Below are positions 21,182 to 63,213 of a stretch of DNA of 64,000 nt, in pieces. Numbering within the stretch: the first letter of the stretch is position 1; the number at the start of each line of letters is the position of its first letter. This DNA comes from Marsupella aquatica. Taxonomy: Eukaryota; Plantae; Marchantiophyta. The DNA lies in the NCBI GenBank assembly GCA_973895155.1, contig OZ316891.1, positions 8,619,875-8,683,874 on the forward strand, in the 5' to 3' direction. The notes beneath the pieces are model-generated. The model ran no database searches, was not told the DNA's origin, and saw only the letters and a list, made by a program, of their open reading frames with translations. The position numbers were made by a program, and so were the translations under genes.

Positions 21182-21195
21182 CGTTATCAGCACGA
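21182..21195 (+). promoter_or_regulatory. Primer-binding site CGTTATCAGCACGA, complementary to the anticodon arm of tRNA-Ile (half-tRNA priming)
   Basis: The reverse complement TCGTGCTGATAACG matches the plant tRNA-Ile(AAU) segment TCGTGCTAATAACG (recalled from memory) except at wobble position 34. Confidence 0.75.
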
Positions 21196-27308: not shown

Positions 27309-27417
27309 TGTTAGACTCTACCTTTGACCGGACGACCGGACCAGCCGGTCACCCTGGTCCTACTATATGTACTCCTATTCCCGACTGTACACATGTTCAT
27401 TCCATTCTATTCTCACA
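27309..27417 (+). repeat. 3' LTR of the Bianca-like element
   Basis: Preceded by the PPT and followed by TSD TTTTC. Confidence 0.95.
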
Positions 27418-41825: not shown

Positions 41826-43010
41826 TTATAAGGGCAGCGACGTCCTCGATGACCGAGACCGTGTCAACGTTGGCATAATTTGAGAACCACTTATTCGCCT
41901 TTCGGGTGTCTGTGATTGTGGAATCCATTCATCATCTTCTTTCAGAGCTGTTATGAGCGAACGGTGACGGCGACCATCAGATTCCGAGGGGACGGGCGTC
42001 TGTTCCCCAAATTCATCTGAATAGCCATGATCATCCGGGAAGATCGTCAACGATGTGTCAAAGGCTTCAAAACGCAATGAGAAGACTGGTGCAGGTTTGC
42101 TGCGTGGCAGTGATGGCACGGGACTGGAGCCTTTCCAGATGTTTAACACCTCCCTCATTGTTGGCCTTTGATCGGGATCAGGATGACAGCACAGAAGCCC
42201 AATTTTCAGAAACATGGTCATCTCGCCAGGATCGAATGCATTCTTTAGTCTCCAATCGACAGCCTCCAAAAGGGTATTGTCTCGGTGAAGCCTCCACACC
42301 CAATCCACAAGTAAAGGCTCGTTACATCGTTCCTTATCTACTTCGGATAGTACTGGTCTCTTGCCCGTGCCCACCTCAAGCATCATGACTCCAAAACTGT
42401 ACACATCGGTTTTCTCTGTGACTTTGAGCGTGGGGGCTATCTCCGGAGCCAAATATCCGTAAGTTCCAGCTAGAGATACTGTGCTTTGTGACCCAGCTTT
42501 GCTAATTTTAGCTAACGGTGCGAAACCGAAATCACCTAAGCGAACTTTGAAATCTCTATCGATCATGATTGCGGACGATTTCACATCTCTGTGAATGACT
42601 TGTTTCCCACATTCCCAATGCAAGTGCGCGAGGGCTGTCGCAACGCCACCCACAATCTTCAGCCGTCTTGCCCATGTCAGGACAGGCTCTCCCGAAGCAT
42701 CCGCATTCTTGAAGAGATGCTGATCCAAGCTCCCGTTGGGCATGTAGTCATAGACAAGCAGCAGTTCACCCTTTTCGTAACACCAACCCAACAATCTCAC
42801 GAGGTTGCGGTGCCGCACTTGACCAATGATCTTCACCGCTGTCAAAAGCTCTCGAGCTCCGTCCTGTGAGTCAGTAGGTATTCGTTTCACTGCTACGTCT
42901 ATTGGCCTGTCAGCTCCCTTCGGCAATAATCTACCTCTGAAAATCGATCCAAATTCAGTATCCCCCAGTACATCATCGGAGCTGAATCCATTTGTAGCTG
43001 TACTCAGAGT
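41826..43010 (-). CDS. Receptor-like kinase domain of L-type lectin RLK type; probable pseudokinase or pseudogene
   Basis: LSTATNGFS..LG, VAVKR, RHRNLVRLLGWC..KGELLLVYDYMPNGSLD, IHRDVKSS, LGDFG, GTYGYLAPE, TDVYSFG and IGLLCCHPDP..RP. Several catalytic residues are altered. No ATG or ectodomain is evident immediately upstream. Confidence 0.8.
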   Translation of the reverse strand, partial: TLSTATNGFSSDDVLGDTEFGSIFRGRLLPKGADRPIDVAVKRIPTDSQDGARELLTAVKIIGQVRHRNLVRLLGWCYEKGELLLVYDYMPNGSLDQHLFKNADASGEPVLTWARRLKIVGGVATALAHLHWECGKQVIHRDVKSSAIMIDRDFKVRLGDFGFAPLAKISKAGSQSTVSLAGTYGYLAPEIAPTLKVTEKTDVYSFGVMMLEVGTGKRPVLSEVDKERCNEPLLVDWVWRLHRDNTLLEAVDWRLKNAFDPGEMTMFLKIGLLCCHPDPDQRPTMREVLNIWKGSSPVPSLPRSKPAPVFSLRFEAFDTSLTIFPDDHGYSDEFGEQTPVPSESDGRRHRSLITALKEDDEWIPQSQTPERRISGSQIMPTLTRSRSSRTSLPL

Positions 43011-43839
43011 TAGCTGAGAGCTCGGCTGAGAGCACTCAAGGATCTACGACTAAGTCTAGGAGCTGGAGACCAGGGAGACTTCACTTAAATGACAACCACT
43101 CCCTTCCTACTGCCCATGAATGTCAAGGAATATGAAGAGTTGCACCTCACTGACCGACGTCTTCCATCTCATGATCAATCATAAAAACAAGAAACTCGTA
43201 CGAGCTTACTGACAGTCCGATCCGACTCATTATAATAATGAAATCAACAACTTTTGTCCTGCACACAAGCATCACCATATCCCTACAAAAAGGATCCAGT
43301 GACAAAAACAGACAATGGATGGGAAATCACACCTCACAGCAGCTGGGTTTATAAAATTTTCTATAAGAAATCCATACAAATCAAACCGGGTGCCAACCCC
43401 ACCACGGAATCTGGGTCTTCGAAGGAAGTGAGACATGCACATGTGCCGAGGTCTGCCCGTTGATTGAGCGCTGGAGTACCCAAGAGATTGGTTGGAGCCT
43501 GTGCATTAGCATTACCATGAGCAGGCAGCGATGAGTCCAATTCGCGTTTGCTCAGAATCAAACGAAGCTAGTCACCCAGAATCCCCAGTCAGCCCTCCAG
43601 CTGAGATTCATCAGCTATGGAATCGCAGGCCACAGAACTCAGTTACTGTGTGGACTACTGCTGCGAGCTCGACGGCTGTCATTGAGTGCAATTCATTCAA
43701 GTATGTGGCTCCAGCCGACTTATATCCATTCTTGTTGTAATCTTTGAAGCTTTATGGCAGGAGAAAAATGCACACTTTCTAAGTAAATAAGAATAAAAAT
43801 CTCTTTGGGTTTTTAAAACCATAAGTGCATCTATCATAT

Positions 43840-44135: not shown

Positions 44136-44953
44136 TTAACTCCCCACTAGGACACTAATCTCCCCTCAAAATTCAATCAATGGACAGAATTTACGCTTCT
44201 CTTGTAATTCTTGAATGCATATTACAATTTAGGGTTTAATAAATGCCATGAAAATACAAAATGAAAAATCACTCACAGCATTCAGTACTCTGTACCCGCC
44301 TCTTCAAGTGGGCATTAAGTCTAATATACTTTCACTGCCACATGTAACCCCCTCGTACGCTTTTAATGTTTCGTCTGGAGACCTTACCCATTCCCACTTG
44401 AGATCGGGCTTGAGACTGAAAGTGTCCCTCTAGTTTACTATAAATGTTTTCACTCACAAGCATATATCATCTGACCACAGAAAGAGAAATAATCATATGA
44501 GACAGAGAAACCCACACAAATTATAGAAAACAAGACGTCACTTTCATCATTGATGAGAGATATAGGGTGGTTCAGAAATCAATACATATGTGTGGAGAGG
44601 GGTCTAGTGTGGGTGGGATGGATTTAGTGGGTAATGGATGACTTTCTGGCTATCTCCTTGGCCCCTGGTTGCCCACTTTGGAGCCTTGATTAATCATATT
44701 TCCCTCTTGGTGCGGTTAGTGTTGGATCCGTGGGGGCTCACCCTGAAATGGGTTCCCAACAATGTATATGTCACTACTGGGGTGGCGAGATGAAGAATGA
44801 GTTGTGACACAACAGACATTTCCCCGTTCCTTTGCCAATCTTCAATGCCCGCACTCCAGAGAAAAGGCCCCAAGCAGTCATCCGCCAGATGAAGGTCTTA
44901 GCCCTCATTGGGAGGTCATGTTGGGTATTTACTCTTATGTCTAGGTTAGGTAT

Positions 44954-45114
44954 GACGTGGTTGGTACAACAACGTGGGTTGGTACAACAACGTGGGTTGG
45001 TACAACAACATGGTTTGGTACAACTACGTGGTTAGGTACAACTACGTGATTAGGTACAACAATGTGGTTAGGTACAACTACGTGATTAGGTACAACAATG
45101 TGATTAGGTTAACT
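44954..45114 (+). repeat. 18-bp tandem array in LTR U3 (9 units in the 5' LTR; 6 units in the 3' LTR at ~50610-50715)
   Basis: Unit ACGTG(G/A)TT(A/G)GGTACAAC(A/T). The 54-bp LTR length difference equals three units. Confidence 0.9.
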
Positions 45115-46069
45115 AAGTTGCACACTATATCATAAGAGGCACGTGTGCTTGGAGGAGTAGAACCAAGGCTCATTGTTATGGAGCCACTTGAGAGATAGGG
45201 AGAGCTTACACTGTGGAGACTCGATATAGCCGACGGGCTTAGAGTTCAGTAAAGCTCTCTTGTGTGTTCCCGTGGACGTAGCCTCAAGGAGGTGAACCAC
45301 GTATCTCTTATGTCGACTATTGTGCGTTGGATGATTCATAGGCTTGCCGTTGCGATCGTCGTCTATGCTCAACAATTGGTATCAGAGCATGCTTGGGAGG
45401 TGACGTGTGTTCGTGACGGGATTTCATGACGGTTTTTCCAGCGTTGAATGTCGGTGGATTTCCCGGAGTTCCGTCGCATGGAACTTGGAGTTTATGGGCT
45501 CAACGGATAGATCGGGGCAAGAGCTTTCTAACGGTGTGAAGAAATCGCTGAACGGAGCTCGTGGTGCGGAGAGATCTAAGTTTTTGTCATTCTGGATTTT
45601 GTGAAGAAAGTTGGCAATCGACTCGGAGGAAGAAGCGTCAAGTGTTTTGACTCAACGGAGAGATTGAGGCAAGACGATTGTTTTGAGTCCCGGATTGGCT
45701 CTTTGATGCAAAGAGGAAGGCTAAGCAAAATCAATTACCTTGTTGGACTTTGTGACGGCACCAAGTGCAATTGATCAACATTCGTTGTTGACAAGCCATT
45801 GAAGTTGGCAACACGGCGCACCAATCACATCGCAATTCCGACAACGGGTTGTACTTGGTATTTCGGTTATTCCCTGAGGTGGTCAAAACGAGGGAGTTTC
45901 CCAAGGTTTTACCCACCTAAACCGAAATTTGAATAACTTTTTCGTCAAATTTTGATTTTGATTTCGGTTTTTCAGTATTGGACTCCTAGCTTTGTGGGCT
46001 ACGCGGCGGTGTTGTTTTTCGAGTTTTTTGAGAAGTTGTGAAAAACGATATTTTTTGTGATTTTCTCAT

Positions 46070-49000
46070 ATGAGTGATTCGGAGGAGTTTTTTGAAGACG
46101 TGGAACTTGAAGCACGAGGATCACCACGGCGGTTTCAGGGGCAGAGAGAGGAGCAGAAGGAAGAGCACGTGACACCGATACCATCACCGGTGCGGCGTGT
46201 GGTGGAGGAAGCAGTACTACTACCGGAGCTCACGGTAGTGCCAAAGAAGAAGATGGGGACTTTCAAGCTTGGGGGACCCAAGTATGAAGTGACAAAGTAT
46301 GATGGGCGCTCTGACTACTTGCTATGGGAGAAGCAGGTGAAGGGAGTGCTCTATGCGTCAGGGATGGGCCAACTGCTGAGCCCTCGTGAAGACGATGTTG
46401 ATGAGAAACAATGGGACCGCATGCAGGAGCAGGAAGTGTGGTGTGTTACACTCTATCTCATGCCTCCCATCATCAAGCAGTTGGGTGCACATAAGGATTG
46501 CATGTCCTTGTTTGCGGAATTGCAGAGCAAGTATCACCGCAAGGAGTTGTCGAACCAGCTCTACACTTCCTACAAACTGATGAGTTTCAGGATGAAGGAA
46601 TCCGGTACGAAGTTGCAAGACCATGTGGATGCTTTCAACGACATGGTCGTTGACTTGGAAAACCTTGGGGAGACTTTGAATGATGAGACGAAGGCTCTGC
46701 AGCTTCTTAGTTCATTGCCTCCATCTTACCAGTCCCTATCACGAGTGTTGTTGCATCGTGATAGGGATACCATTTCATACAATGACGTGGTAAGTTCTCT
46801 GCTTAGTGATGATCTTCAGCAGAAGATGCACATCACGTCACAGCCTTCATCATCTGGTGCTGCCCTCAATGTTAACCGTGGGAGGAGTATGCAGCGACCA
46901 ACTGGGGACCGTAGAACCCAGTTTAGATCTAAATCCAGATCTAAGTCCAAGGGTAAATCCCCTTAGAGGAGGCAGGTGACATGTTGGAAGTGCAACCAAG
47001 TTGGACACTTCAAGCGAGACTGTAAGGGAAAGGCAGCAGAAACTTCATCGGCAAATATGGCTAGGGCTGATGGAGAAGCTGATTTACTCAATGATGAGTA
47101 TGTTTTATGAAGCCGGGGGTATGCCCTATGCACGTCATCTAGGAGAGCAGATGATGTGTGGATTCTTGATTGTGCTTGCTTTTTTCATATTTGTTACATT
47201 CGTGAGTTTTTCAGTTCTTACTCTGTTTCAAACGGTTCAGTTCTGATGGGAAATGATCACTCCTGTCAAATTGAGGGAATTGGGTCTGTGAAGATTCAAA
47301 TGTTTGATGGCGCTGTGCGCACAGTGTCTGGAGTCAGGTATGTACCTGGCATGCGTAAGAATCTGATTTCACTCGGTGTGTTGGATTCAAATGGTCATCA
47401 ATGGAGCATTATTGATGGTGAACTTCAAGTCAGGTCGAGAGAGACAGTGATTTTGAAGGGGAGCAGACAAAAGAATTTGTATGTGTTACAGGGCAATACT
47501 GTATGTGGAGAGGCCAATGTAACCAAGTCTCATGAGGAGATGACTCAACTGTGGCATTCACGGCTAGGCCACATGAGTGAGAAGGGTTTGGCTATCTTAC
47601 GGAAGAATGGACTCATTTCTGATTTGCAATCTTCTAAATTAGAGTTCTGTAAGCATTGCATTCTTGGAAAGCAGCATCGTCGTGCTTTTGGTGTTGGAAC
47701 TCATCATTCCAAAGCGGTTCTTGAGTACATACATAGTGACGTGTGGGGTCCATCCCCGACTCTCTCACACTCTGGAAAGTTGTACTATGTATCATTTATT
47801 GATGATTACTCAAGATTTGTGTGGATTTATTTCATGACGCATAAGTCTGATGTCTTGTCCATTTTTAAGAAGTGGAAGGCCCAGGTGGAGAATCAGACTG
47901 GAAACACGATCAAGTGTTTGGATACAAGGGTGAAGAGTCTGAGGTCAGACAACGGCGGGGAGTACACTTCAATGGAATTTGAAGAGTACTGTTCAGAACA
48001 GGGGATAACTCGCCATCTTACCATAGTTTATACTCCGCAGCAGAATGGTGTCGCTGAGAGGCTCAATCGGACGCTGTTGGAGCGGTCACGGAGTATGTTG
48101 AGCCAATCAGGTTTACCACAAGAATTTTGGGCAGAAGCTGTCAATACCGCAGCTTATTTGGTAAATCTTTCTCCTTCTAGTGCTATCAATTTCAAAACGC
48201 CGTTTGAGATGCGCTATAAGCGGTAAGCAGACTATCATGGCTTGGTAGTTTTTGGAAGTGATGCATATGCTCTCACACCGAAGCAGAATAGGACCAAGTT
48301 GGATCCTACCTCCAAGAAATGTGTTTTTCTTGGGTACCAGAGTGGTGTGAAAGCCTATAGGCTATGGGATCCTATTGCCTGTAAGCTCGTTGTCAGTAGG
48401 GATGTTTCCTTCAATGAATCCAGATTATTGACGGAGGGGGAGAATACTCAGGTCTCCCATACTGACAAAGGAAAATCTCATATCCCGGATCTCGTTGAGG
48501 GGGAGATTGGTTATGAGGTGCATGACCAGAGAGAAGAAGTTGCTCCAATTATGGAGCTGGTTCCTGTGCCAGAGGAACCGGAGGAGTTTGTTGATGCTGG
48601 TGAGCAGCAAGTGGATGCTGTTGAGCTTCAAATTATACCAGCACACGCAAATCAATCGGAGTCATCGGCTAGAAGAACATCTGGTCGCACTGTACGTGCT
48701 CCACCAAGGTATGGACAGTGGGTTGATTCATCTCAACTGCAAGAGAATGATTTTGCAGCTGATGATGAGGGTGATGCGTTAATTTTGGAAGAAGGGGAAC
48801 CTTCTTCATTTCATAAGGCAAGTGCTTCAAAGGAGAAGCAGAAGTGGACTGCAGCAATGCAAACGGAGATGCAGTCACTAAAGGACAACAAAACTTGGGA
48901 GCTTGTTAAGCTGCCTAAGGGTCAGCAAGTGGTGGACAGCAAGTGGATTTACAAGCTGAAAGATAATTCCATGGGAGGTGGATCGAAGGTCTACAAGGCT

Positions 49001-50382
49001 AGGTTGGTAGCAAAGGGATTCACACAAGAGAAAGGTGTGGATTACAATGAGGTCTTCTCACCAGTTGCTAAGTACTCTACAATATGACTATTGTGTGTAC
49101 TTGTTGTAATGTTTGGTCTGCTGCTAGATCAGATGGATGTTGTCACAGCTTTCCTCTATGGCACATTGGAAGAGGTGATCTTCATGAGACAACCGCTAGG
49201 TTTTGTGAAGAGAGGACAGGAGGAATTGGTTTGCAGATTGCTGGAATCCTTGTATGGGTTGAAACAGTCACCAAGACAGTGGAACAAGCGGTTTGACGAT
49301 TGGATTCGGTCACAAGGTTTTCACAGAAGTGTATTTGACCCTTGTGTGTATTTGAAACCTGTGAAGAATGTTGTCTTTGGGTTCATTATTTAGTACTTTA
49401 TGTGGATGACATGCTAATTGCAACCAAGGATAGGTCTGAGATTGTTAAGCTCAAGGCACTGCTTAGTGCAGAGTTTAAGATGAAGGACTTTGGGCCAGCT
49501 AAGAGGATTTTGGGTATGGAGATCACTAGGGACTTGGAGGCTGGTAAGCTATGGTTGACACAAAGTAGTTATGCGAGGAAGGTAATTGCTAGGTTCAACA
49601 TGAGAGATAGCAAGCCAGTAAGTATCCCTTTGGCTGCACACTTCAAATTGTCATCAGCTTTCTGTCCCACAGATGTGATGGAGAAGGGGCTGATGTCAAA
49701 GGTTCCTTATGATAAGGCAGTGGGAAGTCTCATGTATTTGATGACTTGCACTAGACCTGATCTTGCTATGGCTATGGGCAAGGTAAGCAGGTACATGTCG
49801 AATCCAGGGAAGGTACACTGGGAAGCAGTGAAGTGGATTATCAGGTACTTGAAGGGTACCATGGATCATGGTCTTTTATTTGATGCGAATGCAAAGAATG
49901 CTAGATCATTGATTGGCTATGTAGATTCTGACTATGGACAAGATTTGGACCGAAGGAGATCAACAACAGGATACGTGTTCACACTTGGCGGTGGACGCAT
50001 AAGTTGGAGGTCTACTTTGCAGAAGTGTATTGCTCAGTCTACTACAGAAGCGGAGTATGTTGCAGCTGCGGAAGCAGCAAAGGAAGTGATTTGGTTGGAT
50101 AGACTTATCACTAAAATGGGATTGCCACAGGGGAATGTGAAGCTTCATTGTGATAGTCAAAGTGCGCTCCACCTTGCTGTGAACCAGGTGATGGACAGTA
50201 GAGTGAAGCACATTGACGTCAGGTACCATTTTATCAGGCAGGCTGTGTCTGATAATTTGTTTGAGCTAGTCAAGATTGATGGTAAACTCAACCCGGCTGA
50301 CGCATTTACCAAAGTGATTCCTTTGGAGAGTTTCTCTAGACACCGTGACGTATTGCAGGTTTTGCAATTGCATCACAAGTAG
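46070..50382 (+). pseudogene. Copia gag-pol with premature stops and a frameshift
   Basis: gag LLSSLPPSY, CWKCNQVGHFKRDC knuckle, protease WILDCAC, integrase WHSRLGH/HSDVWGP/RSDNGGEY/QNGVAER, RT YKARLVAKG/LYGLKQSPRQW/LYVDD, RNase H YVDSD/CDSQSA/KHIDVRYHF. Stops at 46964, 47107, 48224 and 49085. Confidence 0.93.
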
Positions 50383-52233
50383 AGTTTTTCTTAACATTCA
50401 TTGTAATTACTGATATATGCTCTTCCTCATTCCTATATATTAGGCTACGGCTTAGTTCTGGTTTGCTCTAGTTAGAGAGGGAAACCGGTTTCGTTTTTGT
50501 CCAGAACTTCCCGCTGAGGGATCATATACATTGGCAGTATTACTCTCCCCTAGACCAGAGTCAAGGGGAAGATTGTTGGGTATTTACTCTTACGTCTAGG
50601 TTAGGTATGACGTGGTTGGTACAACAACGTGGGTTGGTACAACAACATGGTTTGGTACAACTACGTGGTTAGGTACAACTACGTGATTAGGTACAATAAT
50701 GTGATTAGGTTAACTAAGTTGCACACTATATCATAAGAGGCACGTGTGCTTGGAGGAGTAGAACCAAGGCTCATTGTTATGGAGCCACTTGAGAGATAGG
50801 GAGAGCTTACACTGTGGAGACTCGGTATAGCCGACGGGCTTAGAGTTCAGTAAAGCTCTCTTGTGTGTTCCCGTGGACGTAGCCTCAAGGAGGTGAACCA
50901 CATATCTCTTGTGTCGACTATTGTGCGTTGGATGATTCATGGGCTTGCCGTTGCGATCGTCGTCTATGCTCAACAGGTCAAGTGTCCGCATGTTAAGCCA
51001 AAGCTTACTCCACTCTCTTTCAGTTCGTGAGCCTCCCCAAATCCTATTGAGTCTACTGGTCTCCGATCCTTGCAGTCTAAGGAGCTGATAAACTCTCTGA
51101 TTGTCTAGTCTGAATTCTCTCATCCTTTCCTTAGACACCCTAACCCAACGCCAGAACTCTGGTTTAGTTTCAATACCAGTATGAGAGTGTCTAGCAGAAC
51201 AGATAGTGCCGACCAGTTGTCTGCAAAGATCCTGAAGCGAGTTGTCAATACCCCTGTCAATACCCCAAACTCTATCAAGTCTTTCCATCACAGAAAATCC
51301 AACATCCTTCCTACCCTGACCAGAGTGCATCCACCCTTTTGATTCCAATTCTACAACAGATCTCCGCCAAAGAGTTAAGATGGCCTTCAAATAAGGATTG
51401 GAATCCCTTCAAACATTTGATCAGGTCACACATTCCCAGTGACCAAGGATAATTCCGTTCTTCAGGAAAAATGTCAAGTACAACCGTAAATCTGCCCAGG
51501 ACTTCCACAAGCTCCCTGTGTAGCGCAGCAAGCCAAACTTCAAAGGCGAGCACAGCAAAATGCGGTCTCTCATTGAGCGGGTCATTGAGTACCCATTCCT
51601 GAAAATATACCCTTGTAATAATGCCACTTTGCCAATCAGAGATTCTCACCAAACAATCGTGCGCATTCTAAGTCGGGGCAGTCCAGAGCCTTGGTCAACC
51701 ATTTGCTCAACAGCGCGTTAGAGTGCCCCTGAAACTCCTTGAATCCCAATCCCCACATAACCTTAGGTTTGGTTAAAGTAGCTCAGGCGACTAGCCAAAC
51801 CTTCCTGCCCCTAAATGGATTATACCCCCATAGAAAGCTCCAGCATAGAGCAATCATCTTCCTAGCCAATTTGGCAGACAATTTGAAAAGCATCATATGG
51901 TAAATCAGAATGGCCTGTAGTACATGTTATGTCTCCTGAAAGCGGGTTAATTAACGCCTCTCCGAGTGCGATACCTCCCCTTGAGGCCTGGACAGGCGCA
52001 AGCTGTGTCCAGGATTTCTCCAAGTCCGGAGCCCTGTGGTAGTCTATGCTCTTGACGAGTCTATCGAAGCAACATGTACAAAAGGGCCAGAAGTGTGCTA
52101 AAGAGCCAAGGCATTCAAGTGGCTTTGCACACCTTTCACAATCTCTAGGTTCATAAGACTTCAGCCTTTCCTTTGAATAGACTCACCATATTCTTGGTTT
52201 CTTGTCTTGACCATTGTGTCAAATAACAGTAAC

Positions 52234-52526
52234 TGTTGGGGATAATCCCTATCCCGAGACACCATGCACATGAGAACACCATACAAAGTAGTCGACACAG
52301 CGAGTACGTGGTTCACCTCATGACCGAGGCTACATTCACGGGAAAGCAAGAGACCTTTACTTCTCTCTTGCTCAACTCCAACAATGAACTGAAGATCCAC
52401 CAGGGACTGGCACCAGCCCTGGCTATATACACAACAACACTACCGCTAACCTTAGCTAAGTCCTAACCTGAGTTAGCCTAACTATGGTTAGCTCAAGAGT
52501 CACAAGACTAAGAGCAATACCTAATA
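52234..52526 (-). mobile_element. Solo LTR related to the LTRs of the 44.9-51.0 kb Copia element
   Basis: Flanked by TSD GTAAC (52229-52233 and 52527-52531). TAGTCGACA...TACGTGGTTCACCTC...GAGGCTAC.T.CACGGGAA is shared with the reverse complement of the Copia LTR. Confidence 0.88.
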
Positions 52527-53059
52527 GTAACAATTAGCTCTCTATAAGACAATGCACGTTCCCAGGAGATAAATCCAGTGCACACTTAGCTAGGGTTTTG
52601 ACTACGTCATAAGTGCAAAAAACTTTGAACATGTATTGATAAGAGCACACACAATGATGACTCATGAGCTATAGTGCCTTGTATGCGATGAGCTCTCTTT
52701 CAGTTGACAATCTCATGACTTCCTTCCTAAATTGTACATGCCTACCTCACAAGTGCCACTTTCACTCTATGTACAGATGACTTGCACTTATCAATAAGTG
52801 TTAGTCAAATTAATTGTGTGCATAGTTGTCGTGACATATAGTATCGTAGCCATAGTGTATCGAAAACATACAAGTCACCGGCAATGCATATGTGCAAGCT
52901 GCTAGCAACCAACATCCTTAGAAAAAGTCCAATCACATTCACAAGTGCCAAGAAAAAGCAACTGAGGTGGTATGTACGTAGTGGAGGTGTAAACCTCTGT
53001 ATCCCCCCCAGACCACAGCTAAAAGGAGGGTTGAAGAAAAGTCAGGTAGCACGTGGAGC

Positions 53060-53203
53060 ACAGGAAGGGCAAAACCATAACCCTTCTGGCACCTGGGTAA
53101 GTTCAGGCTGAAGGCAGAAAATATGGTACCCTCCATTGCAATTATCACATAGCAGCATCTGGTCAGCATCATCAATTCGCAAACACACTTTGCAAGGGTA
53201 GTC
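53060..53203 (-). other. PHD finger at the integrase C-terminus
   Basis: DYPCKVCLRIDDADQMLLCDNCNGGYHIFCLQPELTQVPEGLWFCPSC has C4HC3 spacing. Confidence 0.93.
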
Positions 53204-56200
53204 CACAGGTGGAATCCAAGTAGAAGTCACAATGGTGGGATCCAGGTTAGGCAGATGACAAGGGGCGCAATTCTTGGCATTGTCAGCAATTGTGCGCCCA
53301 TCTGCCCCTTGTAACTCTAGCACTCCAGACGGTCGAATAGCTTTAACCCTGAGAATAGTACGACTGGTAGAGGTGTCCAGGGTGTCGTTAGCTTGCCGTT
53401 GCAAGTACACAAAATCTCCTACATCAAACTTCCTGACCTTGGGCTGAAAAGTGCCCCCTCGTGTGTGTGCATAACGCAGTGTGTCCCTATGCTGTGCAAT
53501 GGCCAAATTCTCCATGGCCATGGGCATAACCCTCCTGAATAGGGCAGCCCTCTCAGAGATCACATCAGACCAAGTCACAGCTGAATCCAAGTCCACCACC
53601 TGAAGCATGTGAGCAGCAATAGTAGAAGGTGGAACTGGGTGACGACCAAACAACAAGAAGTAGGGAGAAAAGTTAGACAGTGATGCATGTCTGGACATCC
53701 TATACCCCATGGCAATGTAGGGTAAGGCCAGGTCCCAATCCTCCTTATTTTTGGTGAGGCAGATCTTCCGGAGACCCTTCTTGCATGTCTGAACCATGCG
53801 CTCTGCCAAGCCATCTGCTTGTGGTTGATCTCGTGACGTTCGGCGATGATCAATGAGGGCCTGATCAAGCAGCTCCTGGAACTCTCCTCTGAACTCTGAT
53901 CCCTGGTCAGTGAGACATTCTGCACAAGCTCCAAAGCGGCTGAGAACTTGTTGTAGGAATGCCTGGCTGGTGCTACGGGAGGTCTTATCCGGCAATGCCA
54001 CAAGTTCTATCCACTTGGAGAAATGCTCTATCATGATCATGATGTAGAGATTACCCCGAGACGTGAGGGGTAATTCTCCAGCCAAATCACATGACCAGCG
54101 ATATAACATGCCCTGAATAGGGAGTGGATGAAGTGTGGGTTGCCGAGATGTGAAAGAAGTCCTCACCCTATCACATTGTTCACACCGGGCAATAACATCT
54201 TGAACCTGGTCATGCATGCCTCTCCAATGATAATGAGGGACCAAGAGGCTGTAAGTCCTCTTAACGCCAAAATGACCAAGCTCAGAATGTACCTTACGGA
54301 TAAGGCCAACCCTCTCATGAATGGGTGGAACCACCACTTCCCTGTCTGGCAAGCAGCGCACGAGATGATCTCCCTTCCACAAGTAACGCTTGGACCTTTG
54401 CTGAATTCGGTCTCTCTGGGTTGCAGTAACATGTATGGGGTACTCCCCATGCTGCAAAAATCTCAGAGTGTCGCTGTCCTCCCATATGTCCACCACAGGT
54501 TGGTCAACGATGTAGCATGGCAGCAAAGCAAGAGAGGTAGATGCATGAAATGTAGGCAGGATGGAAACCTGGTCAAAATCCTGCCGTGCATCTGAGGGAT
54601 CATCAGAGGCAATCAAAGGGCTGCGGGACATAGTGTCAGCATTTTGATGTGTCACACCAGGCCTATGAATTACCTCAAAATCATACTCCTGGAGTATGAG
54701 TGCCCAACGAGCAAGCTTGCCAGTAAGCTTGTCGTTGGTCATCAACCACTTCAAGGGCTGGTGGTCGGTGTAGAGAACAAACCCGGTCCCATAGAGGTAG
54801 GGCCTGTAATGTATTACAGCCCACACAACAACAAGGCATTCACCCTCATAAGAAGAATAATGACTCTCTGCCTGATTGTTGTTCCTGGATGCATAGGCAA
54901 TGACGTACTCTTTACCTTCCTCATCATGCTGGCCCAGAATGGCACCAATCCCAAGGGCACTCCAATCTGTGTGTAGCACAAAGACCTTGCTGAAATCAGG
55001 TCTTCTCAGCACCGGGTATTCTGAGAGCTTCTCCTTCAAAGTGGCAAATGCTGCCTCAGCATCTGTACTCCATGTCCAAGTCACATTCTTTTTCAACAAA
55101 GCATACAATGGGTGTGCAATGGTGCTAAAATCTTTGATGTAGATCCGGTAGTAATTGCACAACCCAATAAAACTCCTCAAAGTGTGAACATCGGTAGGAG
55201 TGGGCATTTCCAAGATGGATACCACCTTGGCCCAGTGAGCCATGGTTCCATTTGGAAGAATGCGGTGCCCAAGGTATACTACTGATCTGACAGCAAATTC
55301 ACACTTCTTGGGGTGTATCTTTAGGTTCACCTTCTTAAGCCTCATGAATAGCTCCTCAAGGTCAAGTAGATGCTGGTCAAATCCTTTGCTGTGGACCAAC
55401 ACATCATCAATGTAGCATTTCAGAAACTGAGCACCTTGAAGAACCTGGTCCATGACTCTTTGAAAGAATATGGGCGCATTCTTCAAGCCAAATGGCATCA
55501 CCAACCACTTCCATAGTTGGTTACTGCCATGGAAAGCTGTTTTCTTGCGATCCTTTGCAAGCAGCAAAATCTGGTTAAAGCCTTGCCTTAGATCCACAAG
55601 AGTGAAGATGTCTGAGTCTCCAATGCTGTCAAATAGCTCCTCTGGCCGTGGCATGGGGTACCTGTCCTGGGGTGTGACCAGGTTCAGTGGCCTGTAGTCC
55701 CCACACATGCACTTCTCTGTCCACAATCCATTGGAATCCTTCTTTGCTGGCATCACTGTAGCTGCTGCAAAATCTGATGTAGATGGCTGAATAAGACCAG
55801 CTTCATAGAGCTCTTGGCACCTCTCATCCACCAGCTGCCACTCATGCTTACTCAAACGGTGTCTCCGCCTGAAGATAGGTGTTTCATCAGCCAACTCAAT
55901 GGAGAACTGCATAGTCTTGCACGGGGTCTTGCACTTACCCAAGTCCTTCATAGAGAAAGCAAACACATTCTCATGCTTGAGGAGAAAATTCAGCAGCTGG
56001 TCCTTCTGTCTTTTACTCAAGTGGTTGCCCATGATGAATGTGTAATTGGCAACACTAGGAATAGGACCTGATGTACTCGTGCTTGAAGAACCAGCAGTGC
56101 TAGCCTCTCCACTATCCAAGCTGCTAGCATGCTGCTGATAAGGTGATGAGGCCTCTCCAAGGCCTGTTGTACCTGCTGATCTGGGTTGGTCCACACCATG

Positions 56201-56379
56201 AAACTCAGAAATATTGTCAGCCACGTTACAAGGGACCTCCTCCCCCCCAACACTTGGATTGAAGCGGTGAGTGTTGAATAGAGGTAAGTGCACCTGGTCT
56301 GGATGCCATGTAGCAGCACCATGGAGTGGTAGAACTGGAACTCCTGATGCTGGAGGAATGGACATCTGAAAAAGGATGC

Positions 56380-57330
56380 AAGTGACCAGAAGCCAAGTGA
56401 GAGCATTAAGATCCATTACCCTGTCAAGTAAAGCATTCCTAGCCAGCCTGGTGGTTTTGGTGTGGCCCGTAGTACCGGGTTGGAAGCCCATAGCCCGTTC
56501 TCTCTCCTCAGGACTAGGTTCATCCCCTGTACTGGTAGAATGTCGATAAACCAGGCCAGGACCATCACCCTGAAAAGCATGTGCACCTGGAAATGATACA
56601 AATGTAGGCCAAGCAGCACGGGGCTCTCCAATGGTATTGGCTGGATACCAAGGTGCTGGCTCTTGTTGGGTAACTGGTTGGCAAGAACTGTCAGGATCCA
56701 AAATCTGGTCCACTGTGAGGTTAGTGTCCCTGGATGTGTGGTGAAGAGCTAACTCCAACAAGGAATGTGGTGCAAGGTTAGTCCAAAAGTTATGAAGACA
56801 ATGTGCATAAGAGCCACAGTGCACTGCATCAATGAGAAGGGGTGGCCCCAAGTAGTGCTGGACCACACTAAAATCCTCTTTGACCTGTGGACGCTGGTCA
56901 AACTGAGATGGAGTATTCTCAATGATATAACCAATAGCAGGATAAAGGGATTGAGCCTAGGTGAGAATCTGAACCAATGCTGTGAAAAGGCCAGAACGAG
57001 AATCATGCAGTCCAGCATCGTGACCAGCAGCTGAAAACCCTTGGCATTCCCAACCAGCTATGATCAAATCAAGGGAGCCAAGAAGGGTTAAGTGTCGGTG
57101 CTGGACAAGCTGGATATCTGGAGGAAAGAAAGAAAATGCAGACTTCCAGGCACTGTGTGGAAACTGCTGAGGGAATCGCTCTGAAAATTCCAGCAGACGG
57201 GATTCAGCCACTTGCCTTGCACTTGGATCAATGTCCACATAGATGTACTGCTTCACCACCATGCCGGACTTTAGGAGAGCTTCCAGGCCTGTAGAAATGC
57301 CACCAAAAAGCTCAAGCAATGTAAGGCCAT
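56380..57330 (-). other. C5 cytosine DNA methyltransferase domain (DNMT3-like) within pol
   Basis: Motif I LLELFGGISTG, II YVDID, III DIQ, IV LDLIIAGWECQGFS, V SRSGLF, VI YIIENT (read across the stop), VIII GSYAHCLHNFWTNL, IX ERERAMGF and X ARNALLDRVMD, all in canonical order. Confidence 0.88.
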
Positions 57331-58269
57331 CTGGAGCTGGAGTCCATGTAACTGGTGCGCTCAAGATTGGGGCTATTGGCTGTCGATTGTGCTGCCCAAG
57401 GTCTTCAAACTTGCGCAATGCAGCCACCAAAGGTCCATGGGCTGCTTGGAGCCGTTGTACCACCTCTGGTTGATGATCCATGTTACTGGAAAGTGCTGCT
57501 ATATGTGCAGTAGCCACCTCATTGTCATCCTCTTCAATCCAATCCTGCAATGGATGGTTGACATAGGTAGCTGTGTGCACTTCTTGCAGCACACAGTGGT
57601 GAGCCATAGGGGTATGGGCACCATGCAAATCAAGTGGAATGTAGCCCAAGTGTGAGCCATCCGTATGCCAATCAACTCTATAGTATGCATGCTCATGCCA
57701 GTTGTCAATGGTAAAACCTGGTGGGAACAAAGCCTCCTGGCCAATGAGCACATCATATGTAGTGGCATTGGTAACCAAACATCTGATTGGAAAATGCAGT
57801 TCCTGATCTGTACCTCCATTAAAAGTGAGAGTGAGTAAAGTAGAACTCAAACATCTGACTGGGAAATGCAGTTCCTGATCTGTACCTCCATTAAAAGTGA
57901 GAGTGAGTAAAGTAGAACTCTCACCCAGCACATCCTCCACAGTGCCACTAGCAGTCCGAATGTGCCACCTAGATTGCTGTAAATGATCAGTCAACAGTCC
58001 CATCTTCTTGGCAAACTGAATGCCCAAGATTACTGGTTGAGCGCCTGTATCTAGCATGACCACCTGAGGAGTGTGACCCTCCAACTTGACTGCTGAATTC
58101 CTGTTGTCAACAATGGCAATGGTGGTGGAAACTAAAGTCCTGTCACTAGGCACCACTTTTGGCAAATGATGAGGTACCTTGTGAAGGGAGTTAGTGTCCA
58201 CGGTCTTCCCACTCAACAGCATAGCCAGGAAAGATGGAGCAGCATGACCAGAATCAAGTGTAGCTCTGG

Positions 58270-60552
58270 TCACACAATCTGCAGCAATACTGTCATCTCT
58301 ACCGCCAAACCAGTGGAAGCATGTAATGGAGAAGAAGAAGGTCCAGTATGTACATGAGATTGGACCTCCAAAACCGGTGGCACAGGGGCTGATGAAGAAT
58401 GCAGTGACCCCTCTAGCGCTCTCATGACAGCTCTAGCATCCAGCTGTAAATCATGGCAATTGAAAAGTGGAGTGGTAAGAATCCTTTGTGCCATATCGGA
58501 GGTGAAATGCCCAAGCAGCTCAGGAGAAACAACTCCCTGTGAAATGTCAGCAGCACTTGGTGGTGGAATGGATGTAGCTGCAGCTCCCTCCCCCCTCGCC
58601 AACAAGGTGTGTTCTTCAACAAGTGTGAGTGGCTGAAAAGATTGGGGCATGACAGCCCAATCGCCCCTGGCTCTAGTCATAGGACCGGCAGCAAGACCAT
58701 CAACCTGGACAATGCGACGTGTGGGAGCAATACGGGAGGCAGCACTGGCCTGCTGGTAAGCAAAATAGGATGGGTAGAATGAATCTGAAAATTCTGTTGT
58801 AAGGCCAGGCTGGGTAGCAGAGGACAGCACACACTCACCCATATGAGCATCAAATGGCAAACCATAGAAAGAGCGAGGTAGAGGTGCTGAATTGTCAATG
58901 GTGCCTGGGCCAGAGATGGGTTGCATGTGACCAGCTGGTTGAGAAGGACCAGTAGAGGCAGTTGACTTGCCTTTGATGTTGGCAAGTTGGGCACGTAAGG
59001 ACTCAACTTCATGAGTCAAAGATTGGAGTTGAGTTGCCTGTGCGTTGTGAGCCTCCTTCTGAGCTGGTTGCTTCTATTGCTGCTTGGGTAATTTGTTGGC
59101 CCCAGGTGCTTTGCCACTGGAAGGAGGAGCAACTGAGGCAATAGGAGCCCTCCTAGCTGGTGGGGGAGTGGAAGCAGGAGCAGGATGAGGGGTCTGCTGT
59201 CGTAGCTGCTTCCTCTCTGGGAATTTGGCAAAACAAACTGCCTCCAAGTGGCCCACTTTCCCGCAAAAATCACAAGACAGGTCCTCAACAACAATATCAC
59301 ATTCATTAGCCTTGTGATTGGGGTTACCACAGTAGTTGCAAGATGGCAGCATGAAAGCAACATGTGCTGGCTTGGTCTTGGAAGCATACGGTGGCACACG
59401 GGAAGGAGTGGCCAGTGTAGGGGCAGCAGCCTGGTACCTGGATCGCGGTGGACGCGCAATACTGGCCTCATAATGTGCATGGACCAACTCAAGTTTCTCA
59501 GCAGTGTCATAGACATTGAGCAGGGTGTAGCTGTCTCCAAACTCTGAGAATACTTGCTGCAACACTTGCGAATGGAGAGCTGGTGTGCCCTCCAATGCGC
59601 GAAGATACCGATGAGCAGCTTCCAGGTCAGTGATGCTCTGGGTGTCCTCCTTCATCTTGAGAAGCCGGCGATACATCATCTTCAATGTTTCATTGCGCTG
59701 CCTCACAAAGGTGGCCAACTGCATGATTTTATCAGCACTCTTGATTGGGAATTCCAATTCAAGAACCTGGAAAAACTCAGCCACTGGATCAGCAAAGGCA
59801 GGAGAATCAATGGTGGGAGAAATGCCTGATGTAGCCTATTCCAAGACAGTGGGAGTAACTGGTGCAGTGGTGGGAACTGGAGTAGGAGGGGAAGTGGCAA
59901 GCGCAGTAGCATGGGCTGCAATGGCATTTTGTAATGCCAGTTGTGAGGCAGCCGCAATTGCAGTGGCATAGGCAGGGTTAGGCAATTGTGTGACAGCAAG
60001 CAGCCGTTGAGAGTGCTGCTCATACACATCCAAAGCCTTGTGGTGCACATACCTGGCTAGCTGCTTAAATGCAAAAACATTTGTGAAATTGCTGCCATAC
60101 TTCAATTCCAATTCGTAAACAACAGCGTAGAAAGTGGATTTGAACTCACGCAAAGAAACAGTGCCTGGCCGCCCGCTGAAGCGGTCAATGCGGCCAGATG
60201 AGTGGCTGGCGTCCATGCTGTATGTCGGTGAAGCAGGAACAACCACGGATGCAGAAGGGGTAAATGGCAATGAAGTGATAGCAGGCTTGGGAGTAGTGGT
60301 GAAGCGACCGCCAAATGGAGCAGAAGGATTGCGTGGTGTGGGTGCTGCTGCTATATGTGGACGTCGTCGAAATTGCCGAGACTCCAATGAAATTGGCACC
60401 AATGGTCGTGGATCACTCCATAAATAGTACCTGGGTGTCGGTGGCGATGTGTTGCTACCTCCTGGCTCGTCTGCTGACATACTGTGTTGCAATACCCGAT
60501 ATACTGAAAACGTGTAAAATGTGTAAACACCAGGAAAAACCGTCACCGTCAA
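58270..60552 (-). pseudogene. gag-like ORF with two CCHC-type zinc knuckles, interrupted by two in-frame TAG codons
   Basis: ORFs 59836-60552, 59074-59784 and 58270-59019 share one frame. Motifs RIDRFSG, FVRQRNETLKMMYRRL, CNYCGNPNHKANEC and CDFCGKVGHLEAVC. Confidence 0.82.
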
Positions 60553-60919
60553 AAAACCGTCGGGGAAAAAGGACCGTTAAAACCTCAAATTTAGCCCCCT
60601 TCGCGTTTGCCTATGTATATGCCGAATTGACCGTCCGGTGTGTATATACCGGGCCGTATGCAGACGACCTGACGTCGGCGACAGCAAAGGAATATGAGGA
60701 AAATGGGCCCCCTGAAGTGTATACCTCGGGCCCCCTATGTGGACCCAAAAACGGAAGGACTGGCCGGCCCCAATGCCCTATGCTGTCATCCCGCGCGTGG
60801 TGAATGAGCGAGAACGGCCGAAAATGAAAAGAAAAGGGCCCGAATTAAGTGTATACACTTCGGACACTCGGCGAAGGGAAAGAAATGGCGGATGCAGGGG
60901 CCCCTCTTAATGGCACGAG

Positions 60920-61250
60920 CCCTGCATAGGGCTTCGCGCCCCCTCCTTATGAGCTCCCGAAAAGGGGTTACGAACTCCCCCCTCCTCTCCTTTAATGCTG
61001 CCTCGCTTCCCCTCCCCTCCTTCAGGCTGAAAATGGGCTCCGTGCCCTGCAGGAGACTCCTGAGGGAAGGAGTCGTATGTACTCCCCCCCTCCATTTAAT
61101 GTAGCACATAGGGCCTCGTGCCCACTGCCTCGGCTCTGTCTCCCCCTGCTTTAATGCTGTTTCGTGTGCTGCAGGAGGACTCCCGAGAAGGGAGTCGAAT
61201 GCACTCCCCTCCCCCTCTGCTTTAAAGTTGCCTAGGGCCTCGTGCCCTCT
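60920..61250. repeat. About three ~110-125-bp diverged repeats with small hairpins in the 5' region of the DNMT element
   Basis: GACTCC-N-GGAGTC(G) at ~61055 and ~61179, with a variant at ~60951. CCCC..TTTAA.G and TAGGGCCTCGTGCCC recur. Confidence 0.7.
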
Positions 61251-63213
61251 CCTGGTGCTCCTTCCCCTTCCTCTGGCTGCTTAGAAATGGGCGAGGCAAG
61301 GGCACGATGCCCTATAAACAGCCTGCACACCAAAGCGGAGGAGGTCGAGAAAAAGAGAAGAAAACGGGGCCTTCAAAGGCGAAAACGTAAAGAGGAGGCC
61401 GGGGTGGAAGCGTGTCGAAACCAGGGCACACGGCCCTATGCAGGCGTCTTGCTGCGGCCGAGGCAAACTCGCCGGCAGCTGTGGCCGGGAATGCAAAAAC
61501 GGCCCCCAAAAGCAGTCGAGGCAGCAAGCGGCAGCAAGCAGCAGTGACAGTAAGAAGAAGCAAAGGGGTCGCGGATGCAACCAGAAAATGAACTCCAGAC
61601 CTCCTCGGGAGCATTGTATACACTTAAGTATACACATAACAACATAAACCCATAACTTTCATTCCGTCGCTCCAATGTTCGTCAAAGAAATTGCAATGGC
61701 TTCACCCAAAAATTGTCGAAATCGTCACGAGCAATCTTCTTCTCCTCACCGCTAACTCGGGAGTTCTTCTTGAATAAAAGGCGTGATAGAAACAAACGTA
61801 CTGAAATCGAATCGAAAACTGGCGAGATGCCAAGATCGGCCGGGAGCATCTAACGAATCACTGTGTGAATTCCGTGTACGGAACCGACGAGCAGCCTCTG
61901 AAAAACTCTGTCTCACAGCGATTCAAGAAGAACTAAAAAATGGCAAAGAAAAACATGCCCTAAGTAGGACCGGGTCCAGGCGTCACACTAACAAACACCT
62001 TTGCTTCAAGAACGGCCCAGACTCGCTACAAGAACATGACATTAACTCAAGTAGTACACTAGCCCTAACTATATACTAGCAGACATGCGAGGGACATGCC
62101 GATGTGCACAAGAGGCACTGTCCCTCGGCATGACATAGTACCCATAAGTACTCAGAAAACCTTTATGGACGGATTGCACTTATTATCTGAACCAGGTTCG
62201 ATCAGTTGATTTGACGGGGGCCTGAAATTCGCCCCACAAAGTATTGTCCAAAACTTTATTGTAAAAAATGGCCCTGTAACTTATTTGAAATTGTATTGTT
62301 AGTACCGCATATTTTGACCCCATATGTTTTGGTTTTGGGCCTTAATACATAATTGTTTTTAGTGCAGCCCTCTTTGCATTGACAAAAACTGCAAAAAGGA
62401 GCCACATGGTTGGGAGCTTGGGGGGGTGGGGTGGGGGAAGAACAGGATGCTTTGCAATTAGCCAGGTTTTGCACTTATGGACTGTGCACTTATTAAGAGC
62501 TGACTGTACAAAGGGAGGGGGACAGTCTTTCCTTTCAGTGCACCTCAGAACTCAGCCGCACCTAAGTTACAGATTCAGGGTTAATCCCATACAGTCAGTG
62601 CAAGTCTGGGACTGACTTGAAAAAATTAAGCAACAACAGGAGGCAGCATTGCCTTGGCCCATGAGGCAGGGGTTAAGGCCTAGTAACCTCCATCTCAATA
62701 ACATGTCCCTTTTCCTTCCCTGCTCTCACCCCAATGCAGCAGGTACGTAGCATCAGCAGCAGCATTAATTCAGCAGAATCAGCAGTCTTGGTTTCTTTTT
62801 GTTGTTTCAAATATTAGCAAGACTGAGACAACTAACCATATTTGGTCAGTTGGCCAGGGGTTGATCCTAGAACAGAGAGGTCCCAGGTTCAAATCCCCCT
62901 CCACATGCAAGGGTTTGTGGAGGGTACTAGTGTGTGTGTGTGTGTGGAGAGTAGTGGTGGGAGTCCTGGTTTCTCTTAAACCACCACTATCCACCAGGTT
63001 CTGGGAAGACAAAAAAGTGCACTTTATTATTTTCTTGAGAATATTATTCACTCATATTAGTAACCTGGATACACGGGTTTTTGCTTAGTGGATAGTGGCC
63101 TTTAAGCCCCTGGCTAGTCTGCTTTGGGGCCCTGGTTCAACCTCTCTCCCTCCTGGTATCCCCGTTGGATCCTTGGGTATGACCCCTTGTGGCTACCCTA
63201 CAGAGGTGCATGC

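What the first reader, a model, noticed from the sequence alone, without database searches (positions are those of the whole stretch)
53060..53203. Integrase ends in a PHD finger rather than a chromodomain, giving a histone reader and a DNA writer in one polyprotein
Seen: an intact C4HC3 PHD directly after the integrase. Known: chromoviruses place a chromodomain here to steer integration. H3K4me3-binding PHDs usually have a Trp just before the His ligand. This finger has GYH plus acidic residues and MLLCD, like PHDs that bind unmodified H3K4 (BAZ2/KDM5-PHD1 type). Inference: it targets H3K4-unmethylated chromatin and, together with the DNMT, parallels the ADD-plus-MTase logic of animal DNMT3.
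Basis: partly seen in the sequence, partly recalled or inferred. Interest (0 to 1): 0.82.

Follow-up and report, generated by a model that had tools for sequence, protein, structure and literature searches.

The report
PHD-tipped integrase of permuted-end Gypsy retrotransposon
A broken jumping gene in a likely liverwort genome ends its integrase with a real PHD zinc finger, predicted to bind unmethylated histone H3 and likely steering where new copies land; the trait is family-wide and partly known, but the family's inserted copies also begin and end inside their terminal repeat, which suggests insertion from an end-joined DNA copy.

Summary
In detail: an intact C4HC3 PHD (minus strand, 53194-53060) closes an RT-RH-integrase frame. 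It is a family trait: 112 of 120 listed integrase-only homologs carry it, always 138-162 residues behind the integrase core, from liverworts to chlorophytes, under purifying selection. It lacks the methyl-K4 tryptophan, has the acidic wall and is nearest to WSTF, KDM5-PHD1 and BAZ2, so H3K4me0 binding is a fair but untested prediction. The ADD-DNMT3 analogy is weak: the DNMT3-like domain is about 1,050 residues away, broken in this copy, sits in two different slots across the family, and each domain is lost without the other. PHD-bearing and DNMT3-bearing Gypsy elements are both in print. The stranger feature is the ends: the element (62135-52827, 4-bp target duplication) carries no LTR pair; relatives are A-internal-B or A-internal-B-A-B, with TG/CA attachment sites joined head to tail inside the repeat. 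Both joins predicted from the primer sites appear at the predicted bases in public contigs. Integration from end-joined cDNA is the likely route; the layout was noted in Klebsormidium without a mechanism, and earlier in this scan. New variant of a known kind.

The parts
52827..62135 (-). Whole Ty3/Gypsy element, 9,309 bp, A-internal-B form, TG...CA ends, no repeat pair
   Evidence: depth edge and loose ends at 52827
62136..62139 (-). 4-bp target-site duplication, 5' copy
   Evidence: identical to 52823-52826
52823..52826 (-). 4-bp target-site duplication, 3' copy
61774..62135 (-). Terminal block A (362 bp): left attachment site, inferred promoter and R/U5 part
   Evidence: joint 53002/61774
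61923..61934 (-). Inferred 5' end of the RNA (self-primer), 12 of 12 complementary to the primer-binding site
   Evidence: same pairing in 19 of 22 sister-family rows
61762..61773 (-). Primer-binding site of self-priming type, directly behind block A
58270..60480 (-). gag region with zinc knuckle, split by in-frame stops
   Evidence: zf-CCHC E 9e-4, below cut-off; colinear with sister loci
57776..58090 (-). Aspartic protease, with a 72-bp tandem duplication (57776-57919)
56350..57340 (-). DNMT3-like cytosine methyltransferase; in this copy broken by a stop between motifs IV and VI and damaged in motif VIII
   Evidence: an intact homolog (P0074) is nearest to DNMT3A/B/C in the PDB
55259..55711 (-). 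Reverse transcriptase core (Ty3 nearest solved relative)
54683..55072 (-). RNase H
53252..54325 (-). Integrase: HHCC finger, DDE core, beta-barrel C-terminal domain
   Evidence: model of homolog P0116 aligns to two-domain retroviral integrases
53060..53194 (-). C4HC3 PHD finger, last domain of the polyprotein
53003..53009 (-). Polypurine tract (G run) directly ahead of block B
52827..53002 (-). Terminal block B (176 bp), ending in the right attachment site
   Evidence: joints, loose ends

Best explanation
This is a genuine PHD finger at the end of the integrase of a decayed copy of a green-plant Gypsy clade that also carries a DNMT3-like domain; the finger is predicted to bind the unmodified N-terminus of histone H3 and likely tethers the integration complex to nucleosomes without H3K4 methylation, away from active promoters, as a chromodomain does in chromoviruses. 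Shown: the fold motif, its fixed place behind the integrase, its conservation, the missing cage tryptophan. Inferred: the PHD stays on the mature integrase, binds H3 A1-R2-T3-K4 through the first strand and acidic wall, and biases target choice. The DNMT is most likely a separate module acting on the element's own cDNA (inferred; activity untested). The DNA that the integrase inserts is unusual: reverse transcription (self-primed, PPT-primed) would give B-A-internal-B-A, whose tips are not attachment sites; the TG and CA sites lie head to tail (CA-NN-TG) inside that repeat. The integrase therefore likely cuts this internal junction, in a one-repeat circle or trimmed linear DNA (giving A-internal-B, this copy) or after the cDNA tips have been joined (giving A-internal-B-A-B, the only form whose RNA would be terminally redundant).
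For: PHD: Pfam E 3e-13. Integrase-only query: 112 of 120 listed homologs carry PF00628 (150 passed, 30 not shown), 17 of 19 longer ones; named hosts Calypogeia, Klebsormidium, Closterium, Volvox, Pleodorina, Haematococcus, Chromochloris, Monoraphidium. Distance integrase core to PHD 138-162 residues in 130 of 130 proteins with both. Window versus sister family: dN 0.18 in PHD, 0.11 integrase core, 0.15 RT, 0.37 linker, silent sites saturated. Two residues before His: Gly 104, Trp 1 of 113. Nearest solved fingers include WSTF, KDM5 PHD1, BAZ2A/B, ATXR5, UHRF1, AIRE, BHC80; acidic wall and cage Trp are nearly exclusive (PMC5415848 passages); the window has Asp at the column acidic in KDM5D, Lid and WSTF. 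PHD kept after DNMT loss (P0052, P0067). A PHD-bearing Chlamydomonas Gypsy inserted intergenically 2.6 times more than chance (10.1101/2022.06.16.496473). Ends: 33 B-only and 28 B-A-B among 61 distinct insertions; 4-bp duplication with at least 3 of 4 matches in 17 of 19 two-ended copies, shuffle mean 2.0, maximum 8 in 10,000; both predicted joins found at the predicted bases in contigs of the window's own family.
Against: No binding or insertion-site data. The acidic wall is not universal: Asp/Glu at that column in 40 of 113, at the neighbouring column in 58 of 113, and 26 of 113 have a net basic loop; 21 of 113 end in His instead of the last Cys. The nearest solved set includes UHRF1 (reads unmodified R2 by a cited title) and rice EHD3, whose ligand I did not check. 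A Closterium-linked branch (P0057, P0255) has no PHD, so it is dispensable. Membership of the Chlamydomonas element in this clade was not tested, and its bias may be selection (the authors say so). Protease cleavage sites are unknown. For the ends: the A-B-A-internal-B form expected from a symmetric two-repeat circle was seen in 0 of 19 two-ended copies against 8 A-internal-B-A-B, which a plain circle model does not explain; contigs cannot tell integrated junctions from free circles; retroviral integrases use linear DNA (PMC11054761 passages).
Confidence: 0.6

Rival explanations
1. Reader-writer coupling as in DNMT3 ADD-MTase: the PHD brings or activates the element's DNMT on H3K4-unmethylated chromatin at the insertion site.
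For: Both domains occur together in 51 of the 59 proteins judged; the DNMT is DNMT3-like and under purifying selection (dN 0.26-0.35, silent sites saturated). In chlorophyte-type members the DNMT lies directly before the integrase, so DNMT-IN-PHD could remain one chain.
Against: In this copy 1,055 residues with RT, RH and IN separate them; DNMT before RT in 12, between RH and IN in 42; PHD without DNMT in P0052 and P0067, DNMT without PHD in P0255; the finger is C4HC3, not an ADD. The Klebsormidium DNMT was inactive in yeast, which the authors call inconclusive (PMC5890265 section 10).
Confidence: 0.12
2. The finger binds H3 but is indifferent to K4 methylation or prefers a low methyl state (reads A1/R2, or K4me1), acting as a general nucleosome tether without steering.
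For: For BAZ2A/B and KDM5B-PHD1, R2-T3 are crucial and K4-T6 are not; acidic residues vary across the family.
Against: Methylation of K4 weakens binding in BAZ2A/B, DPF3b and MOZ, the class this finger resembles.
Confidence: 0.18
3. The finger works on the element's own chromatinized circular cDNA or as a structural part of the integrase (positioning it on the internal junction), not on the target.
For: The family needs integrase to find a junction inside the repeat; a conserved Cys-Pro-Cys-His motif just before the PHD is nearly invariant, hinting at a larger zinc-bound unit.
Against: Surface residues match histone readers; no direct evidence for circles.
Confidence: 0.1
4. For the ends only: no circle is needed. 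A-internal-B arises by recombination between B1 and B2 after insertion, and the A|B join is made by reverse transcriptase jumping from one cDNA tip to the other on one strand.
For: A one-strand jump would explain why A-B-A-internal-B was seen in 0 of 19; single added bases at 5 of 28 joins fit untemplated addition (read by eye); block B is covered far deeper than the internal part, as many short A|B units would give.
Against: It still needs the integrase to cut inside the repeat; end-joining gives the same join variation.
Confidence: 0.35

Closest known systems
KnitGypsy-Dnmt3 / streptophyte Gypsy-DNMT3 (de Mendoza et al. 2018, PMC5890265; passages, sections 10 and 11, three supplement files searched; figures not visible)
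   Same: Gypsy Pol with a DNMT3-like domain under purifying selection; repeat layout 'the same as that of a DIRS retrotransposon'.
   Different: The text names no PHD (0 hits in main text and supplements; Fig. 4c may draw it), gives no mechanism for the ends, and covers one alga; here a liverwort-like host and a clade reaching chlorophytes.
Gypsy-7a_cRei of Chlamydomonas (10.1101/2022.06.16.496473; passages)
   Same: Gypsy Gag-Pol with a PHD finger, proposed to limit harmful insertions; intergenic bias 2.6-fold; unequal LTR ends.
   Different: No DNMT mentioned; PHD position and clade membership not testable here (sequence not available).
Chromoviruses, Tcn1/Tf1-sushi group (PMC6317226 passages; PMC6673714 passages)
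   Same: Histone reader at the integrase C-terminus; self-primed reverse transcription.
   Different: PHD instead of chromodomain; predicted ligand unmodified H3K4 instead of methyl-H3K9; attachment sites inside the repeat.
BAZ2A/B, KDM5-PHD1, WSTF, ATXR5 PHD fingers (PMC5415848 passages)
   Same: No cage tryptophan, acidic residue before the first strand, E 1e-12 to 1e-15.
   Different: Fused to an integrase; acidic patch varies among family members.
EpiLTRs (10.64898/2026.05.21.726589; passages and section 7)
   Same: LTR elements with a histone reader plus cytosine and amino methyltransferases.
   Different: Those use a chromodomain, DAM and a DNMT4-related enzyme; chlorophyte relatives found here have PHD, DNMT3-like, Tudor-like and a TaqI-fold methyltransferase. 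The window's element lacks that tail.
PAT/Ngaro/TOC1 split-direct-repeat elements (layout recalled; DIRS layout also in the review file of PMC5890265)
   Same: A-internal-B-A-B layout.
   Different: They integrate by tyrosine recombinase; this family has a DDE integrase, TG/CA ends and 4-bp duplications.

Membership tests
PHD finger (PF00628) | C4HC3 ligands with core Trp before the last pair | tested here: met
H3K4me0-reading PHD (BAZ2/KDM5-PHD1 type) | No cage tryptophan | tested here: met
   Gly in the window and in 104 of 113; offset of the Trp recalled
H3K4me0-reading PHD (BAZ2/KDM5-PHD1 type) | Acidic wall before the first strand | tested here: met
   Asp aligned to acidic residues of KDM5D, Lid, WSTF; only 40 of 113 family fingers at that column
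H3K4me0-reading PHD (BAZ2/KDM5-PHD1 type) | Measured binding to unmodified H3, weakened by K4 methylation | not testable with these tools
   needs ITC or arrays
Ty3/Gypsy | gag-PR-RT-RH-IN order, Ty3-like RT, DDE integrase, 4-6 bp duplication | tested here: met
Ty3/Gypsy | Two full LTRs whose outer tips are the attachment sites | tested here: not met
   no B before A1 in 19 of 19 two-ended sister copies; no repeat pair in the window
Chromovirus | Chromodomain at integrase C-terminus | tested here: not met
   no Chromo hit; none in the Pfam lists
Chromovirus | Position inside the chromovirus clade in an RT-RH-IN tree | not tested
KnitGypsy-Dnmt3 kind | DNMT3-like domain inside Pol | tested here: met
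   broken in this copy
KnitGypsy-Dnmt3 kind | DIRS-like repeat layout | tested here: met
   A-internal-B-A-B in 8 two-ended sister copies; both joins in the window's own family; this copy is the shorter form
KnitGypsy-Dnmt3 kind | Sequence kinship with the published element itself | tested here: inconclusive
   Klebsormidium homologs P0020, P0029 are 53-55% identical in the integrase, but P0020 lacks a DNMT and neither is labelled as the published element
DNMT3 ADD-MTase module | Reader adjacent to, and inherited with, the catalytic domain | tested here: not met
DIRS/PAT/Ngaro | Tyrosine recombinase, no target duplication | tested here: not met
   no recombinase family in the frames scanned; 4-bp duplications
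Troyka | CG...CG termini, 3-bp duplication, animals only | tested here: not met
   PMC12440569 parts 1-3 of 5

The most novel reading that the evidence does not exclude
A green-plant-wide Gypsy lineage replicates through end-joined cDNA that its DDE integrase opens at a head-to-tail junction inside the repeat (the circle route abandoned for retroviruses), aims it with a PHD at H3K4-unmethylated nucleosomes, and marks its own DNA with a DNMT3-like enzyme; chlorophyte members add a Tudor-like reader and a second, amino-type methyltransferase.
Probability: 0.35. Interest if true: 0.8.

Novelty: new variant of a known kind. Interest (0 to 1): 0.5.

Why it matters
Chromodomain tethering is the textbook case of a retrotransposon reading histone marks; a clade-wide PHD on the integrase would be a second route, reading the absence of an active mark, and is directly testable if the active Chlamydomonas element belongs here (86 mapped new insertions). 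The ends matter more: retroviral-type integrases are held to use linear DNA tips, and here hundreds of genomic copies are best explained by cleavage at an internal junction. LTR finders that need two LTRs would miss or mis-bound the whole clade.

Tried and rejected
No genome is held for this window, so copy counts and insertion context in the host could not be had. Viral contigs gave no relative. Troyka was considered for the odd ends and rejected. My recollection that Selgy elements carry a PHD was wrong: 0 hits. PHD with DNMT of P0100 as a complex: no answer, score 0.00, alignment not used; no evidence either way. Single-sequence fold of the algal tail failed (pLDDT 36); Foldseek on the full model listed only integrases. 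No RNA holder listed. CpG loss as a sign of self-methylation is inconclusive: strong in this copy (13 observed, 89.7 expected at silent codon boundaries), but part is decay after insertion, the sister family estimate is 0.41-0.46 and other Gypsy elements beside it are at 0.5. The whole 191-nt leader folds no better than shuffles (z -1.2); only the primer duplex is supported. End-finding scripts slipped on short repeats; counts are from the corrected, join classes were read by eye. The PHD hit in 80 of 80 loci is not a fair frequency, as the query held the PHD. Supplements of the bioRxiv papers were closed and the journal version of the chromatin survey was not held; its table of PHD-transposon fusions may already list this clade.

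Full report
Observation. The minus-strand frame 56956-53042 (1,304 aa) holds the back half of a cytosine methyltransferase, RT, RNase H, integrase and, at residues 1255-1299 (53194-53060), a complete C4HC3 PHD finger (Pfam E 3e-13). Upstream in the same frame, behind a stop at 56957-56959, lie the protease and the front half of the methyltransferase; gag is further up and also broken. A neighbouring host gene is nearest to the leafy liverwort Calypogeia fissa (83%, against 70-71% for Marchantia and Sphagnum), so the host is likely a leafy liverwort.

The PHD is the family rule. A search with the integrase only (residues 880-1180, no PHD in the query) passed 150 proteins; of the 120 listed, 112 carry PF00628, and 17 of 19 longer proteins do. 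Named members span Calypogeia, Klebsormidium, Closterium, Volvox, Pleodorina, Haematococcus, Chromochloris and Monoraphidium. Of the ten without it, most stop early or shift frame, P0025 has a degenerate finger, and P0057 (Closterium) and P0255 form a branch (support 1.00) with an unrelated tail, a likely real loss. The finger starts 138-162 residues behind the integrase core in 130 of 130 proteins with both. Against a sister family (80 loci) silent sites are saturated while dN is 0.18 in the PHD, 0.11 in the integrase core, 0.15 in RT, 0.26-0.35 in the DNMT and 0.37 in a linker. In contigs of the window's own family the PHD is covered like the integrase, and the five listed differences miss all ligands, the Gly and the acidic-wall Asp.

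What it would bind. The nearest solved fingers are CHD4, WSTF, KDM5/Lid PHD1, EHD3, BAZ2B, KMT2C, ATXR5, KAT6A, BAZ2A, UHRF1, BHC80 and AIRE (best 60 of 86 shown); I saw no ING, BPTF or TAF3 entry among them. Two residues before the His, where K4me3 readers have their cage Trp (offset recalled), the family has Gly in 104 and Trp in 1 of 113. An acidic wall before the first strand marks readers of unmodified, helical H3 and rarely co-occurs with that Trp (PMC5415848, passages); the window has Asp there. Against a uniform reading: the wall column is acidic in only 40 of 113, and 26 of 113 have a net basic loop; in BAZ2 and KDM5B R2-T3 matter more than K4. H3K4me0 binding is thus a reasonable prediction for this finger, not a result.

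The DNMT3 analogy. An intact homolog's methyltransferase is nearest to DNMT3C/B/A (E 2e-6 to 5e-5), and the family keeps motifs I, IV, VI and VIII; this copy has the stop and a damaged motif VIII. But PHD and DNMT do not behave as one module: 1,055 residues separate them here; among 59 proteins long enough to list, the DNMT lies before RT in 12 and between RNase H and integrase in 42, and is undetected in 5, of which P0020, P0052 and P0067 span both slots. The two slots follow two branches of the integrase tree; P0052/P0067 nest inside the chlorophyte branch and kept the PHD (FastTree, 144 rows, three unnamed outgroups, deep nodes weak). P0255 has the DNMT and no PHD. The PHD belongs to the integrase. 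De Mendoza et al. propose cDNA methylation for such DNMTs; their Klebsormidium enzyme was inactive in yeast, inconclusively (sections 10, 11).

The ends. No LTR pair flanks the element. Sister loci explain why: they carry a 293-bp block A at the left and, behind the polypurine tract, either a 179-bp block B alone or B-A-B. Of 80 loci I dropped 10 (six without B behind the PHD, two B-A only, two at contig ends) and merged nine repeat sightings: 33 B-only and 28 B-A-B among 61 insertions. In 19 loci with both ends (11 and 8 of the two forms; one row each per insertion) none has B before the first A. Outer ends are TG...CA with a 4-bp duplication: at least 3 of 4 matches in 17 of 19, exact in 8, shuffle means 2.0 and 0.4; lengths 3, 5, 6 give 26-32% identity against 79%. 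The window copy runs 62135-52827 with an exact 4-bp duplication and is of the A-internal-B form. Inside B-A-B the right and left attachment sites face each other across two bases (28 of 35 by script, the other seven being register slips visible in the print). About 30 bases behind a TATA box, A holds a stretch complementary to the bases right behind A (12 or more of 15 in 19 of 22 rows); the window has 12 of 12 with two compensatory changes relative to the sister family (read by eye). This is Tf1/Tcn1-type self-priming (PMC6317226). Primer site and purine tract define a cDNA B-A-internal-B-A whose tips are not attachment sites. The A|B join is the place where those tips would meet, and it varies: exact in 14 of 28, short losses in 7, one added base in 5, longer losses in 2 (read by eye), while the tract-to-B register is constant in 45 of 53.

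A prediction tested. From the window's family should have an A|B join at 61774/53002 and a B|A join at 52827/62135 with two bases between. Contigs of four coded public runs (three studies; one may be the window's source) show 53002/61774 in X1, X2 and X5, and 62135/52827 with two letters between in X1 and X3, with a near form in X2; loose ends at 53002 read into the end of A. Depth in X3 suggests some 60 near-identical copies, about half with the B|A join, but the tool warns that depth is no copy number, and contigs do not separate integrated from free DNA.

Mechanism. Shown: anatomy, conservation, two integrated forms, both joins. Inferred: integrase cuts the internal CA-NN-TG junction; one-repeat circles or trimmed linear DNA give A-internal-B; end-joined cDNA gives A-internal-B-A-B, the only form with a terminally redundant RNA; the PHD tethers the complex to H3K4-unmethylated nucleosomes. 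Unexplained: the mirror form A-B-A-internal-B is missing (0 against 8), so the join may be made by a one-strand RT jump rather than a symmetric circle. For retroviruses the circle-junction model was dropped in favour of linear DNA (PMC11054761, passages).

What is known. KnitGypsy-Dnmt3 has the DNMT3 and the DIRS-like repeats, with no PHD in its text or three supplement files and no mechanism (figure unseen). A PHD in a Gypsy Gag-Pol with intergenic bias is described in Chlamydomonas; PHDs in retrotransposons are called widespread (PMC6673714; 10.1101/2021.11.30.470311). Ten searches found no paper defining this clade, testing its PHD or explaining its ends; the library lacks most subscription journals and Repbase reports. 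Earlier notes of this scan describe the same PHD-DNMT family and the permuted ends (seen after I had derived them); they are not independent support.

Verdict. The finger is real, conserved and probably an integrase tether for unmodified H3; the ADD-like coupling is unlikely. Both ingredients are in print and the family has come up before in this scan, so the PHD alone is moderate. The junction-based insertion, here backed by duplication statistics, compensated self-priming and predicted joins, is what a specialist would find surprising. New variant of a known kind; interest 0.5.

Noticed in passing
Proteins P0031-P0121 and P0244-P0260 with a tail (e.g. P0116 residues 420-766): Chlorophyte-type relatives carry about 350 residues behind the PHD: a Tudor-like domain (PF21743 in P0256) and an amino-methyltransferase fold (model of A1, Z 14.2, rmsd 2.7, 157 aligned to M.TaqI; partly degenerate motifs). 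54 of 121 proteins have a tail of 200 residues or more. A PHD-based counterpart of EpiLTRs.
   Followed up: partly
window 52827-53002 and 61774-62135: Blocks A and B are covered much deeper than the internal part in public contigs, suggesting many solo A|B units or short non-autonomous elements; L044:6131-6610 looks like one.
   Followed up: no
window 53042-60480: Coding part strongly CpG-poor (o/e 0.28) while leader and block A keep CpG (0.85); CWG not depleted, unlike other Gypsy elements in L030, L033, L070 (0.19-0.25).
   Followed up: partly
window 53270-53255 (Cys-Ala-Pro-Cys-His before the PHD): Nearly invariant Pro-Cys-His motif at the end of the integrase C-terminal domain; possible extra zinc site.
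   Followed up: no
P0069-P0109 group and P0074, P0076, P0090, P0247-P0252: A basal branch whose PHD ends in His rather than Cys (21 of 113).
   Followed up: no
window 21073-27425 and 44900-50975: Two ordinary decayed Copia elements with LTR pairs.
   Followed up: no
window 28607-30903, 38247-39305, 41826-43043: Host genes: GST-like, an intronless inositol monophosphatase (83% to Calypogeia fissa, 70% Marchantia, 71% Sphagnum) and a protein kinase.
   Followed up: partly
window 52300-52636: A different high-copy repeat beside the element, with a 73-bp inverted match to the Copia LTR at 50849-50920.
   Followed up: no
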